This document shows positions 22,125 to 23,558 of a DNA stretch of 64,000 bases, one piece after another. The stretch's first letter is position 1, and every line of letters starts with the position of its first letter. A program made the translations under genes and the position numbers. A model generated the notes under the pieces. It saw nothing but the letters and a program-made list of their open reading frames with translations, made no database searches and was not told where the DNA came from. The DNA comes from an uncultured Bacilli bacterium (GTDB lineage: Bacteria; Bacillota_I; Bacilli_A; RF39; UBA660), in contig CAKPIT010000003.1 of NCBI GenBank assembly GCA_934162445.1, forward strand, positions 64,928-128,927, read 5' to 3'.

Positions 22125-23558
22125 TTGATTACATTACAAAATTTACTAAACAAAATAAAAGAATATAATTCAGAAGAAGTAAAAGTAGTAGAAAAAGCCT
22201 ACGAATATGCTAATGTTTTACATCAAGGTCAAATGAGACAAAGTGGCGAACCATATATAAGTCATCCTTTAAATGTAGCCTATATATTAGCAGAAATGCA
22301 CGCTGATAAAGATACAATATGCGCTGGCCTTTTACATGATACGTTAGAAGATACTAGTATTGCAAAAGAGGATATTGCTCATGAATTTAATCAAAATGTT
22401 GCCAATTTAGTAGATGGAGTAACAAAATTATCCAAGATGAATTTTTCATCTAAGCAGGATCAAAATTATGCTAATACAAGAAAGATAATAACTGGAATAA
22501 CAGATGATGTTAGAATAATCATCATCAAACTTGCTGATAGACTTCATAATATGAGAACATTAGGATTTAAATCTGAATTTAAACAAAAAGAAAATGCACT
22601 TGAAACAATGGAAATATTTGTTCCTCTTGCTTATTATATTGGAGCGTACAGAATTAAATCTGAATTGGAAGATTTATCTCTTCAATATTTAAAACCAGAT
22701 ACATATAAAAATATTGAAGAAAGAAAACTAAAATTAGAAGAATCAAGTAATGCGTGTTTAAATGAGATGTTTTATAAAATAAAAGCTTTATTAGATAATC
22801 AAAACATTCCAAATGAAATAAAAATAAGAACAAAAAACATTTATGGTATATACAAAAGATTAAGCGAAGGCCACAAATTATCTGATATACATGATTTATT
22901 ATCACTTAAAATAATGGTAGATGAAATAGCTAATTGCTATCTTACCCTAGGAATGATTCACAAAGAATATCATCCAATCAATGATAAGTTTAAAGATTAT
23001 ATTTGTAATCCCAAAACTAATATGTATCAAAGTTTACATACAACAGTATTTGGTCCAGATGATAGATTAGTTCAAACCCAGATAAGAACTTTTGCAATGG
23101 ATAGAGTAGCCTCATTTGGATTAACCGCATATTGGAATGAACAAAAAGGTAAAGCAAGAGATATAATGCAAGAAAACTTAAGACAAAAATTTCAGTTTTT
23201 TAAATCTTTAATAGAAATTAATTCCATGTTTGGAGATAATCAACAATTTGTAAAACAAGTTAAAAACGAATTATTTGCAGACAGGATATATGTTTATACT
23301 ACCAAAGGTGATGTTATTGAATTACCAAAGGGGTCCACGCCAATAGATTTTGCATATAAAATTCATACTGATATAGGTAATACAATGATTGGTGCATTTG
23401 TTAATGATGAATATGTACCAGTTGATTATATATTACAAAATAAAGACAGAGTAAAAGTTATTACAGATGATTATTCTTTTGGTCCAAGAGAAGAGTGGAT
23501 TGAAAAAACACAAACTAGTTTAGCAAAAAGAAAAATTAAAGAATTTAATAGAAAATAG
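22125..23558 (+). CDS. Truncated long-RSH: HD (p)ppGpp hydrolase + RelA/SpoT synthetase + TGS domain, lacking C-terminal ZFD/ACT domains
   Basis: TTG start 5 nt after GGGAGGTG; HD motif [13 protein letters not shown]...LLHDTLEDT; synthetase motifs [67 protein letters not shown]; 477 aa versus 717 aa for the canonical Rel at 48207. Confidence 0.8.
   Translation: [477 protein letters not shown]

What the first reader, a model, noticed from the sequence alone, without database searches (positions are those of the whole stretch)
22125..23558. Second Rel paralogue truncated after the TGS domain (no ZFD/ACT ribosome-sensing region) with apparently intact hydrolase and synthetase motifs
The window contains the canonical 717-aa rel in its conserved secDF-rel-dtd context and, 25 kb away, a 477-aa paralogue. 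The paralogue keeps the HD motif (H...HD...ED), the synthetase G-loop and catalytic Asp region ([20 protein letters not shown]), and a complete TGS domain ([32 protein letters not shown]), then stops. Long RSHs need their C-terminal domains for ribosome/tRNA-dependent control, so an NTD+TGS-only enzyme should be differently regulated, or constitutively active. The TGS domain by itself binds the tRNA CCA end. The TTG start has a strong SD.
Basis: partly seen in the sequence, partly recalled or inferred. Interest (0 to 1): 0.7.

Follow-up and report, generated by a model that had tools for sequence, protein, structure and literature searches.

The report
Truncated, hydrolase-only Rel paralogue with cysteine-codon leader
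The second Rel gene is real, but it has lost the catalytic glutamate needed to make the alarmone (p)ppGpp, so it is most likely a compact alarmone-degrading enzyme; it is shared by over a hundred uncultured gut Bacilli species and preceded by a conserved cysteine-codon leader and terminator.

Summary
The ORF 22125-23558 (477 aa: HD + RelA_SpoT + TGS, ending about 30 residues into the helical domain) is confirmed. It is only 48% identical to the canonical 717-aa Rel at 48207-50360, so it is an old paralogue, not a fragment.

The claim of intact synthetase motifs fails. The catalytic Glu (B. subtilis Rel E324) is Gln317, the G-loop Gly is Ile234, R269 is Lys and the AHW His is Tyr. All hydrolase residues are kept.

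These changes define a family. Among 150 unbiased representatives, 46 of 50 short proteins lack the Glu and 96 of 97 long ones keep it. A genome scan found at least 120 species, almost all uncultured gut Bacilli or Tenericutes MAGs, with 94 of 100 complete ORFs at 468-516 aa. dN/dS is about 0.06 in every domain.

Best reading: a SpoT-like hydrolase-only mini-RSH that keeps the HD, pseudo-SYNTH, Core and TGS module.

The conserved partner is not a neighbouring gene but a leader. It has a promoter, a short Cys-codon-rich ORF and an intrinsic terminator overlapping that ORF's stop (72 of 98 loci; 4 of 101 controls). This is probably a ribosome-mediated attenuator.

Verdict: a new variant of known kinds, of moderate interest.

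The parts
21881..21908 (+). Promoter-like site: -35 TTGACA (21881-21886), 16-nt spacer, extended -10 TGnTAAAAT (TG at 21900-21901, TAAAAT at 21903-21908)
   Evidence: Best match in the 9-kb scan, 11 of 12 with TG. Similar TTGACA...TAxAAT sites sit upstream of the leaders in related loci.
21935..22081 (+). Leader ORF of 48 codons (MENMYYNPNIKFNKKISVRKKCHTNAVCSCVLLGLIKNKIMTVTEISL), with SD AAGGAGAG at 21925-21932. Its stop codon TAA (22079-22081) lies at the top of the terminator hairpin.
   Evidence: Sequence. An equivalent SD plus short ORF ending at the terminator occurs in 72 of 98 relS loci, against 4 of 101 control intergenic regions.
21998..22024 (+). Cluster of three Cys codons in the leader ORF (TGC 21998-22000, TGT 22016-22018, TGT 22022-22024)
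   Evidence: Leaders are 7.1% Cys against 1.2% background. TGY counts by frame are 171 in frame against 56 and 86 out of frame. In 65 non-redundant leaders the counts are 143, 54 and 77, binomial p=1e-10.
22058..22108 (+). Intrinsic terminator: a long hairpin (22058-22102, about -21.5 kcal/mol) followed by a run of 7 T (22102-22108), ending 16 nt before the relS start
   Evidence: Fold of the leader gives z=-5.3. Sequence. 82 of 98 related loci have a terminator-like hairpin at this place.
22125..23558 (+). relS: truncated long-RSH paralogue, 477 aa, TTG start, SD GGGAGGTG at 22111-22118
   Evidence: TIGR00691 scores 523.6 bits against a 499.2 cutoff, matching profile positions 1-450 of 687.
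22197..22634 (+). HD (hydrolase) domain, residues 25-170, with all catalytic and metal-binding residues conserved
   Evidence: Pfam HD_4 E=1.4e-41. R38, H47, H71, D72, E75, D76, D138 and N142 are 99-100% conserved in the family.
22827..23138 (+). Pseudo-synthetase domain (Pfam RelA_SpoT, residues 235-338). The fold and several nucleotide-binding residues are kept, but catalytic residues are replaced.
   Evidence: Pfam E=5e-28. I234, K262, K288, Q317 and Y336 replace G240, R269, R295, E324 and H343. dN/dS is 0.087.
23073..23075 (+). Codon CAA = Gln317, at the position of the catalytic Glu (B. subtilis Rel E324)
   Evidence: Ungapped alignment to 6YXA. In the family column, 39 Q, 4 K, 2 L and 1 H occur among 50 short representatives, against 96 of 97 E in long ones.
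23286..23465 (+). TGS domain, residues 388-447. The CCA-stacking His (B. subtilis H420) is kept here as H414.
   Evidence: Pfam TGS covers 1-60 of 60, E=2.2e-21. H420 is only 57% conserved across the family, against 100% in long Rel.
23466..23558 (+). C-terminal stub of about 30 residues, the first helix of the alpha-helical domain, then stop TAG
   Evidence: Aligns to 6YXA up to residue 483. The same end point occurs in 45 of 50 short representatives.
23581..26564 (+). Passenger cassette co-transcribed with relS in this species only: archaeal-type AdoMet synthetase (23581-24834), 329-aa AlaRS-core-like protein (24845-25834) and Peptidase_S51 (25890-26564)
   Evidence: Pfam and NCBIfam results. 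The relS-metK gap is 22 nt with no terminator. The same three genes occur together elsewhere without relS. They are absent next to relS in related species.
48207..50360 (+). Canonical full-length bifunctional Rel (717 aa) in secDF-rel-dtd, with all hydrolase and synthetase residues intact

Best explanation
The gene, here called relS, encodes a hydrolase-only mini long-RSH. It has a catalytically competent Mn-dependent HD domain, a synthetase-like domain that no longer catalyses pyrophosphate transfer, the Core linker, and a TGS domain.

Shown:
- The architecture.
- The loss of the catalytic Glu and the G-loop Gly.
- Full conservation of hydrolase residues.
- Membership of a distinct family found in more than 100 species.
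- Strong purifying selection on every domain.

Inferred:
- It degrades (p)ppGpp made by the full-length Rel of the same genome. This would be a RelA/SpoT-like division of labour that arose independently in a lineage of uncultured gut Bacilli.
- The Core and TGS domains are kept because, as in SpoT and Rel, they are needed to hold the HD site in its active state.
- The dead synthetase site is kept as a scaffold or nucleotide-sensing allosteric site.

Expression is set by a conserved leader: a promoter, a short Cys-codon-rich ORF, and an intrinsic terminator that overlaps the ORF's stop codon.

Inferred mechanism of the leader:
- A ribosome that translates the leader to its end occludes the terminator stem, so RNA polymerase reads into relS.
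- A ribosome stalled at the Cys codons, when charged tRNA-Cys is scarce, leaves the terminator free, so relS is shut off.
- The alarmone therefore lasts longer during starvation.
For: Architecture and paralogy.

Active-site mapping on B. subtilis Rel (6YXA): E324 is Q317, G240 is I234, R269 is K, H343 is Y, and the HD residues are intact.

Family-wide pattern:
- 46 of 50 short representatives lack the Glu; 96 of 97 long ones keep it.
- One split separates all 45 short non-Glu proteins from all the others, with NJ bootstrap 35 of 40.
- At least 120 species genomes carry it, all true homologues.
- 94 of 100 complete ORFs are 468-516 aa.
- dN/dS values: overall 0.063, HD 0.056, SYNTH 0.087, Core 0.034, TGS 0.052.

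Literature:
- SpoT E319Q is a synthetase near-null with normal hydrolase (PMC6085430).
- B. subtilis Rel E324V has an inactive synthetase (PMC7098656).
- The Rel NTD alone is nearly hydrolase-dead, while loss of ZFD and RRM raises hydrolysis and lowers synthesis (PMC7797070).
- In hydrolase-only A. baumannii SpoT, Core and TGS align the HD site (PMC9974481).

Leader:
- 72 of 98 loci against 4 of 101 controls.
- Cys enrichment and frame bias.
- The leader is present whatever the downstream genes are.
- No antiterminator signal.
- Ribosomes stopping next to a terminator suppress it (PMC4824070).
Against: - There is no biochemical or expression data. All sequences come from metagenome assemblies.
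- An engineered SpoT truncated after TGS (residues 1-454) was impaired in vivo, and its strain lost virulence; the paper attributes this to a strong drop in hydrolase activity (PMC9974481). High activity of a natural NTD+TGS protein is therefore not guaranteed.
- The synthetase-like domain keeps R241, K243, D264, Y308, H312, Q326 and R328 and is under strong constraint. It could do more than act as a scaffold.
- The genome scan pattern required Q324, so 100% Gln in that set is by construction. Only the representative set is unbiased.
- The window's own leader has only 3 Cys codons, and its closest relatives have 1 or 2.
- The direction of regulation is inferred from geometry only.
- Leader-peptide attenuation needs ribosome-polymerase proximity. 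From my own knowledge, this proximity is weak in B. subtilis.
- I could not check the full RSH inventory of these genomes.
Confidence: 0.6

Rival explanations
1. One reading: an NTD+TGS enzyme with both activities alive, either a differently regulated or constitutive (p)ppGpp synthetase or a tRNA pyrophosphokinase.
For: The D264 equivalent, R241, K243, Y308, H312, Q326 and R328 are conserved, and the domain is under purifying selection. TGS is complete and H414 is kept in this species.
Against: The catalytic Glu is Gln in the family. The identical substitution abolishes SpoT synthetase activity. The G-loop Gly is lost and variable. The CCA-binding His is only 57% conserved.
Confidence: 0.07
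2. A decaying duplicate or pseudogene fragment of rel.
For: It is shorter than Rel and lacks catalytic synthetase residues.
Against: It is 48% identical at the protein level, with almost no DNA similarity to rel. It has the same length and end point in about 100 species. dN/dS is about 0.06. It has its own promoter, leader and strong SD.
Confidence: 0.02
3. The upstream small ORF is a Cys-rich peptide product, such as a RiPP precursor followed by a leaky terminator. On this view relS is the first gene of variable biosynthetic operons rather than an alarmone hydrolase.
For: Some leaders are very Cys-rich (10 of 46 residues). In some species relS is followed by a cluster with a YcaO-like protein (recognised by eye from its sequence, no family search) or by a radical-SAM cluster. 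Precursor plus terminator plus enzymes is a common RiPP layout (my own knowledge).
Against: The only gene that always travels with the small ORF is relS. Downstream genes differ even at 85% identity (356 clusters among 515 neighbours), and in the commonest species there is no such cluster. The peptides vary from 13 to 56 residues with no conserved core. The stop codon is positioned on the terminator.
Confidence: 0.06
4. The HD domain acts on another substrate, for example (p)ppApp or pGpp. Alternatively, guided by TGS, it removes a 3'-pyrophosphate from the tRNA CCA end.
For: TGS binds the CCA end in Rel. I recall that small alarmone hydrolases can reverse tRNA pyrophosphorylation by toxic synthetases.
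Against: All residues that bind ppGpp in Rel and SpoT are unchanged. H420 is poorly conserved in the family. There is no toxin-like synthetase or defence context nearby.
Confidence: 0.08
5. The leader is real but senses something other than tRNA-Cys, or works in the opposite direction. It could respond to general translation stress or ribosome-targeting antibiotics, or stalling could switch relS on.
For: Antibiotic-sensing leader ORFs with terminators are known in Firmicutes (for example bmrCD, PMC4191407, listed). The RBS of the leader pairs with the ORF body more than in shuffles (z -1.6), which hints at extra structure. Some leaders have only one Cys codon.
Against: Cys is the only strongly enriched residue (6-fold) and is enriched in frame. 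No antiterminator pairing exceeds chance.
Confidence: 0.15

Closest known systems
SpoT[Hs] of Moraxellaceae (A. baumannii SpoT, PMC9974481)
   Same: It is a long RSH that has lost synthetase-critical residues and keeps a non-catalytic pseudo-SYNTH domain. Its HD domain is intact, and Core and TGS activate the HD site. It coexists with a synthetase-competent paralogue.
   Different: SpoT keeps the HEL, ZFD and RRM domains and belongs to the proteobacterial SpoT clade. relS stops after TGS, branches with Firmicutes-type Rel, and its partner Rel is still bifunctional.
RshC (Atkinson et al. 2011, PMC3153485)
   Same: It is a second-copy long RSH in Bacilli, truncated within the helical domain, that keeps TGS and lacks the CC/ZFD and ACT domains.
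   Different: RshC was found only in a few B. cereus-group strains and was labelled [HS], meaning both activities were predicted. relS lacks the catalytic Glu and occurs in uncultured gut Bacilli. Orthology could not be tested because no RshC sequence was available.
Engineered C-terminal truncations of B. subtilis Rel and A. baumannii SpoT
   Same: Removing ZFD and RRM shifts Rel towards hydrolysis, and the NTD alone is nearly hydrolase-dead. This explains why a natural hydrolase would keep TGS.
   Different: The engineered SpoT 1-454 variant was compromised in vivo, which the paper attributes to reduced HD activity. relS is a naturally selected version with its own substitutions.
Small alarmone hydrolases (Mesh1 and SAH families)
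   Same: They are stand-alone (p)ppGpp hydrolases that supplement a long RSH.
   Different: SAHs are single HD domains. relS keeps the SYNTH-like, Core and TGS domains and derives from a long RSH.
Cys-codon upstream-ORF attenuators (mycobacterial polycysteine uORFs, bioRxiv 10.1101/834739; Rhodobacterales cysS uORFC-8-2, PMC8632094)
   Same: They have a short upstream ORF with conserved Cys codons and a terminator-like stem with a U run, and are proposed to sense charged tRNA-Cys.
   Different: Those control cysteine-related genes and are thought to switch on when ribosomes stall. Here the target is an alarmone hydrolase, no antiterminator is detectable, and the stop codon sits on the terminator. 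This suggests the opposite logic, resembling pyrBI-type ribosome occlusion (my own knowledge).

Membership tests
RelA/SpoT homologue superfamily, long-RSH class | HD domain plus RelA_SpoT (SYNTH) fold plus TGS in one chain | tested here: met
   Pfam HD_4, RelA_SpoT and TGS. TIGR00691 scores 523.6 bits against a 499.2 cutoff. 6YXA matches at E=3e-132.
RelA/SpoT homologue superfamily, long-RSH class | Full C-terminal regulatory region (helical, ZFD/CC, RRM/ACT) | tested here: not met
   The protein ends at the equivalent of B. subtilis residue 483. The RelA_AH_RIS and ACT_4 hits seen in the 717-aa paralogue are absent.
Bifunctional Rel[HS] | Synthetase catalytic Glu (RelSeq E323, B. subtilis E324) and G-loop Gly | tested here: not met
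   Q317 and I234. The pattern is family-wide.
Bifunctional Rel[HS] | Hydrolase HD/ED motifs and metal ligands | tested here: met
   R38, H47, H71, D72, E75, D76, D138 and N142 are conserved.
SpoT[Hs] (hydrolase-only long RSH) | Intact HD with loss of SYNTH-critical residues and retention of a pseudo-SYNTH domain | tested here: met
SpoT[Hs] (hydrolase-only long RSH) | Membership of the Beta/Gammaproteobacterial SpoT clade with a complete CTD | tested here: not met
   No CTD beyond TGS. Its best PDB match is B. subtilis Rel (E=3e-132), far ahead of the proteobacterial entries. In the NJ tree its family joins the long-RSH part next to the clade that holds the window's own Rel; the tree included no SpoT reference.
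RshC (Atkinson 2011) | Second-copy long RSH truncated in the helical domain that keeps TGS | tested here: met
   Architecture as described in PMC3153485 and seen here.
RshC (Atkinson 2011) | Orthology with the B. cereus-group RshC clade | not testable with these tools
   Only accession numbers were available. No B. cereus record appeared in the Gln-specific genome scan, which argues weakly against orthology.
Small alarmone hydrolase (SAH) | Single HD domain only | tested here: not met
   SYNTH-like and TGS domains are present.
Leader-peptide transcription attenuator | Promoter-proximal short ORF with SD, enriched in one regulatory codon | tested here: met
   72 of 98 loci. Cys is 7.1% against 1.2% background. 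In-frame TGY bias has p=1e-10.
Leader-peptide transcription attenuator | Intrinsic terminator between the leader ORF and the structural gene | tested here: met
   Hairpin of about -21.5 kcal/mol plus U7 at 22058-22108. 82 of 98 loci have one.
Leader-peptide transcription attenuator | Alternative antiterminator structure | tested here: not met
   Pairing between the ORF body and the terminator 5' arm equals that of shuffles (mean z -0.03). The 5' arm pairs with upstream sequence in only 14% of loci.
Leader-peptide transcription attenuator | Signal-dependent read-through | not testable with these tools
   This needs reporter or 3'-end mapping experiments.
Known riboswitch, T-box or other Rfam cis-regulator | Match to a curated covariance model | tested here: not met
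   There are no hits in the leader at gathering score, and only chance-level hits at E up to 10.

The most novel reading that the evidence does not exclude
An independently evolved, minimal SpoT-like enzyme (HD, dead SYNTH, Core and TGS) in uncultured gut Bacilli.
- Its production is gated by a Cys-codon leader peptide that works by direct ribosome occlusion of a terminator.
- Shortage of charged tRNA-Cys would switch the alarmone hydrolase off. This is the inverse logic to biosynthetic attenuators.
- The circuit would form a feed-forward loop that lengthens (p)ppGpp lifetime during starvation.
- The conserved but catalytically dead synthetase site may additionally act as a nucleotide sensor for the hydrolase.
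Probability: 0.3. Interest if true: 0.7.

Novelty: new variant of a known kind. Interest (0 to 1): 0.5.

Why it matters
Split of labour. If the reading is right, an abundant group of human and animal gut bacteria (relatives of CAG-710 and CAG-611) has split alarmone control between a bifunctional Rel and a compact hydrolase. This would be a further, independent case of the RelA/SpoT type of subfunctionalisation.

Test of the structural model. The family shows which parts of a long RSH are needed for hydrolysis, namely HD, pseudo-SYNTH, Core and TGS. It therefore gives a small, tractable protein for testing the tau-state model.

Annotation. These proteins are named 'GTP pyrophosphokinase' or '(p)ppGpp synthetase I' in public records. 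That name probably states the wrong activity.

Regulation. The conserved Cys-codon leader would link charging of one tRNA to alarmone turnover at the level of transcription. It would also add a leader-peptide attenuator to a group of bacteria where, as far as I know, such devices are thought to be rare.

Tried and rejected
- **Rfam:** searches on the whole window and on the leader found no riboswitch or T-box. The region upstream of the MAT cassette in another genome also gave nothing.
- **Conserved operon partner:** none exists. There are 356 clusters among 515 neighbouring genes. MetK, the AlaRS-like gene and S51 are passengers in this species only.
- **Antiterminator:** none is detectable.
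- **AlphaFold2:** a run with the only alignment allowed (35 sequences, mostly 85-87% identical) gave mean pLDDT 59.6, with the SYNTH domain below 50. I did not use it and ran no fold search.
- **Second protein search:** a search with a diverse family profile returned the same close relatives and added no diversity.
- **Phage and plasmid searches:** tblastn against both collections gave only ordinary Rel genes on mislabelled records.
- **PADLOC:** no defence context.
- **Homology to L126 genes:** the 329-aa protein is not homologous to the 334-aa gene next to relS in L126. The S51 proteins there are only weakly similar.
- **Query error:** my 'sORF' tblastn query started one base out of frame. 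Those two hits show DNA similarity only.
- **RshC orthology:** not testable, because no RshC sequence was available. The supplements of the 2020 RSH census are not held.
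Full report
**Observation**

An SD, GGGAGGTG, lies 6 nt upstream. Pfam finds HD_4 (residues 25-170), RelA_SpoT (235-338) and a complete TGS domain (388-447), with nothing after it. The 717-aa protein at 48207-50360 additionally has the AH/RIS and ACT domains and sits between secDF and dtd.

The two proteins are 48% identical over their shared length. Their DNA aligns only in two short stretches at 65-72%. 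The short gene is therefore an old paralogue, not a recent duplicate or fragment.

**Active sites**

The best PDB match is B. subtilis Rel 1-556 (6YXA, E=3e-132). The alignment is ungapped across the synthetase motifs and fixes the numbering.

- All hydrolase residues are present (B. subtilis R44, H53, H77, D78, E81, D82, D144, N148).
- In the synthetase domain the Mg-binding Asp (D264), R241, K243, Y308, H312, Q326 and R328 are kept.
- The catalytic Glu of EVQIRT (E324) is Gln317 (CAA, 23073-23075).
- The G-loop Gly240 is Ile234. R269 and R295 are Lys. The His of AHW is Tyr.

The full-length paralogue in the same window has all of these residues in the canonical form. The same Glu-to-Gln change engineered in E. 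coli SpoT (E319Q) gives a near-null synthetase with unchanged hydrolase (PMC6085430). E324V inactivates the B. subtilis Rel synthetase (PMC7098656). That SpoT E319 is the homologous position is my own knowledge.

**It is a family, not an accident**

A full HMMER search of 1.84 billion cluster representatives returned 150 best hits.

- 46 of the 50 proteins shorter than 520 aa lack the Glu (39 Gln, 4 Lys, 2 Leu, 1 His). Most also have Lys at R269 and no Gly at 240.
- 96 of 97 proteins longer than 650 aa keep Glu, and all 97 keep Arg269.
- 45 of the 50 short proteins end at the same place, in the first helix after TGS.
- In a neighbour-joining tree one split separates all 45 short non-Glu proteins from everything else, with bootstrap 35 of 40.
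- The four short proteins that keep Glu fall inside long-Rel clades and look like fragments.
- The root is unknown. The family joins the tree next to the clade that holds the window's own Rel, which fits a duplication of a Firmicutes-type Rel followed by faster evolution.

- All 120 are true homologues, 37-87% identical.
- Among 100 complete ORFs, 94 are 468-516 aa.
- The record titles are almost all uncultured Bacilli, Tenericutes, 'Mycoplasma sp. CAG:611/CAG:472', 'Clostridium sp. CAG:710/628/1193', 'Firmicutes bacterium CAG:460' and 'Erysipelotrichaceae' MAGs from gut samples.
- From memory, these belong to RF39-like lineages.
- That scan required Gln, so its 100% Gln is by construction. 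The unbiased evidence is the representative set.
- One hit (L084) is an unrelated 713-aa high-GC long RSH that also has Gln.

**Selection**

Pairwise dN/dS among 49 pairs of close family members gave the following median values:

| Region | dN/dS |
|---|---|
| Whole protein | 0.063 |
| HD | 0.056 |
| Synthetase-like domain | 0.087 |
| Core linker | 0.034 |
| TGS plus stub | 0.052 |

The dead synthetase domain is clearly maintained, and the Core is the most constrained part. Across the family R241, K243 and D264 are 98-100% conserved. The CCA-stacking His of TGS (B. subtilis H420) is only 57% conserved, against 100% in long Rel, although it is present in the window protein as H414.

**How it most likely works**

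The published work makes sense of this architecture.

- In B. subtilis Rel, removing RRM and ZFD raises hydrolysis and lowers synthesis.
- The NTD alone is almost hydrolase-dead.
- Deacylated tRNA inhibits hydrolysis through H420 (PMC7797070).
- In the hydrolase-only SpoT of A. baumannii, the Core and TGS align the HD site, while pseudo-SYNTH, ZFD and RRM only tune it (PMC9974481).

relS keeps exactly HD, pseudo-SYNTH, Core and TGS. I therefore read it as a SpoT-like hydrolase-only mini-RSH that removes (p)ppGpp made by the full-length Rel.

Two points count against simple high activity. The engineered SpoT 1-454 variant was compromised in vivo, which the paper ascribes to a strong loss of hydrolase activity. 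The strong constraint on the dead synthetase site also suggests it still binds nucleotides. It may work as an allosteric switch on the hydrolase, as in the nucleotide-switch model for Rel (my own knowledge).

**Surroundings**

No protein-coding neighbour is conserved. There are 356 clusters among 515 neighbouring genes, and the genes downstream differ even between species whose RelS proteins are 85% identical.

In this window relS is followed after 22 nt, without a terminator, by three genes:

- an archaeal-type AdoMet synthetase;
- a 329-aa protein with no family;
- a Peptidase_S51 protein.

That trio is a separate cassette. It occurs with the same order and sizes in other genomes, with its own promoter and without relS. 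hisS, aspS, dnaG and sigA follow it here.

**The conserved partner is a leader**

Upstream of relS lie four elements in order:

1. The best promoter-like site of the region (TTGACA, 16 nt, TGnTAAAAT; 21881-21908).
2. A strong SD and a 48-codon ORF (21935-22081).
3. A long hairpin followed by seven U (22058-22108).
4. The relS start, 16 nt further on.

The leader ORF's stop codon sits at the top of the hairpin.

The comparative evidence is as follows.

- In 98 related loci with enough upstream sequence, 82 have a terminator-like hairpin at this place. In 72 of them an SD-led ORF of 13-56 codons ends at or inside that hairpin.
- The same test on 101 other long intergenic regions of the same loci gave 4 hits, one of which is a split relS. 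In the window only relS shows a convincing case.
- The peptides are not conserved in sequence or length, but they are rich in Cys: 7.1% against 1.2% in neighbouring proteins. 66 of 72 have at least one Cys and 41 have two or more.
- TGT/TGC counts are 171 in frame against 56 and 86 in the other frames.
- After removing near-duplicates the counts are 143, 54 and 77, with p=1e-10.
- The leader is present whatever lies downstream, including in the commonest species, where relS stands almost alone. This argues against a RiPP precursor.

Two tests for an antiterminator gave nothing above chance. Ribosomes that stop close to a terminator are known to suppress it (PMC4824070). The simplest model is direct occlusion.

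- Full translation of the leader lets polymerase read through.
- Stalling at Cys codons, a median of 15 codons before the stop, frees the terminator and shuts relS off.

This direction is sensible for a hydrolase, but it is inferred only.

Cys-codon upstream ORFs with terminators are known upstream of cysS in Rhodobacterales, and as polycysteine uORFs in mycobacteria. The device is therefore a new member of a known kind with a new target and possibly inverted logic.

One feature is unexplained. The RBS and start codon of the leader pair with the ORF body more strongly than in shuffles (mean z -1.6), and the partner strand overlaps a Cys codon in 68% of leaders.

**Comparison with what is known**

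- It is a long RSH by domain content and by the TIGR00691 score, but it fails the tests for bifunctional Rel.
- It works like SpoT[Hs] but is not a member of that clade.
- Its architecture matches RshC of Atkinson et al. 2011, a second-copy long RSH in a few B. cereus-group strains that is truncated in the helical domain and keeps TGS. RshC was scored as [HS], and I could not obtain a sequence to test orthology.
- I found no paper describing this Gln-bearing truncated family or its leader. The literature held here is incomplete.
- Public records name these proteins 'GTP pyrophosphokinase' or '(p)ppGpp synthetase I'.

**Verdict**

The ORF and its truncation are real and conserved. The interpretation needs correcting from 'both activities intact' to 'hydrolase-only with a maintained dead synthetase domain'. 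This is a new variant of known kinds. It is of moderate interest to RSH specialists and directly testable.

**Limits**

- Everything rests on sequence comparison of metagenome-derived genomes.
- The tree is distance-based and unrooted.
- The structure prediction failed for lack of a permitted deep alignment.
- I could not list all RSH genes in these genomes.

Noticed in passing
window 23581-26564; also L128 5735-8676 and L130 5733-8692: A conserved three-gene cassette occurs with the same order and sizes in different genomic contexts, with or without relS. It comprises an archaeal-type AdoMet synthetase (PF01941; below all NCBIfam cutoffs, 305 bits against 481), a 329-aa protein and a Peptidase_S51 protein. 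Its function is unknown; it may be a small biosynthetic or salvage module.
   Followed up: partly
window 24845-25834: The 329-aa protein has no Pfam, NCBIfam or PDB sequence match. It has 137 homologues of about 329 aa, and one carries a faint precomputed hit to tRNA-synt_2c, the AlaRS core. From memory, its motifs FLTAGIQP and GFGLERI resemble the AlaRS catalytic motifs. It may be a stand-alone AlaRS-core-like enzyme.
   Followed up: partly
window 17530-21667: Three consecutive + strand ORFs (330, 433 and 593 aa) directly upstream of the relS promoter have no hit in Pfam, NCBIfam or PADLOC.
   Followed up: partly
L054 3341-7442, L012 and L060 (downstream of relS): In three related species relS is followed by a four-gene set of 537, 111, 428 and 296 aa. 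By eye the 428-aa protein looks YcaO-like and the 537-aa protein has a possible C39-like peptidase end, so this is a RiPP-like cluster. No family search was run on these.
   Followed up: no
L126/L127 6540-18028: In the CAG:611-like species relS is preceded by a serine recombinase, an HTH protein and a small sigma-70 region-2 protein. It is followed by a 727-aa protein with His_Phos_1 and a weak Fer4_12 hit, a 613-aa Radical_SAM protein, an unknown 334-aa protein, Peptidase_S51 and a metallo-beta-lactamase-fold protein. This looks like an inserted island.
   Followed up: partly
L020 + L035 (CAKPBH01) and L014 + L063 (CALVRH01): Two different relS copies occur on different contigs of the same MAG (86% and 76% identity to the window protein in one MAG, 79% and 62% in the other). 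This could be a real second copy or a mixed bin.
   Followed up: no
window 26680-29314 and 45928-50791: The two Rel paralogues sit in the two halves of what I recall as the classical Firmicutes rel neighbourhood. secDF-rel-dtd holds the long one, and hisS-aspS lies just downstream of the short one. aaRS or aaRS-like genes (TrpRS-like, AsnA-like, GluRS-like, HisS-like; identified by eye or by weak tblastn matches) are often next to relS in other species.
   Followed up: partly
window 21912-22056 and the equivalent leaders in 71 loci: The RBS and start codon of the leader ORF pair with the body of the ORF more than in shuffles (mean z -1.6). The partner overlaps a Cys codon in 68% of leaders. 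The Ser-Cys dipeptide is mostly encoded UCAUGY (22 of 32). The role of this helix is unexplained.
   Followed up: partly
L039 3346-3882 (- strand) and its upstream region: A short His- and Cys-rich ORF (MIEIRCFKHHHRFHFAHHCFCALFLK) ends at a terminator-like hairpin upstream of a 178-aa protein that looks like a membrane protein. It may be another leader-type regulator.
   Followed up: no
L084 488-2629: A 713-aa full-length long RSH from a high-GC organism also has Gln at the catalytic Glu position (IQIQIRT). It is unrelated to the short family and may be another independent hydrolase-only long RSH.
   Followed up: no
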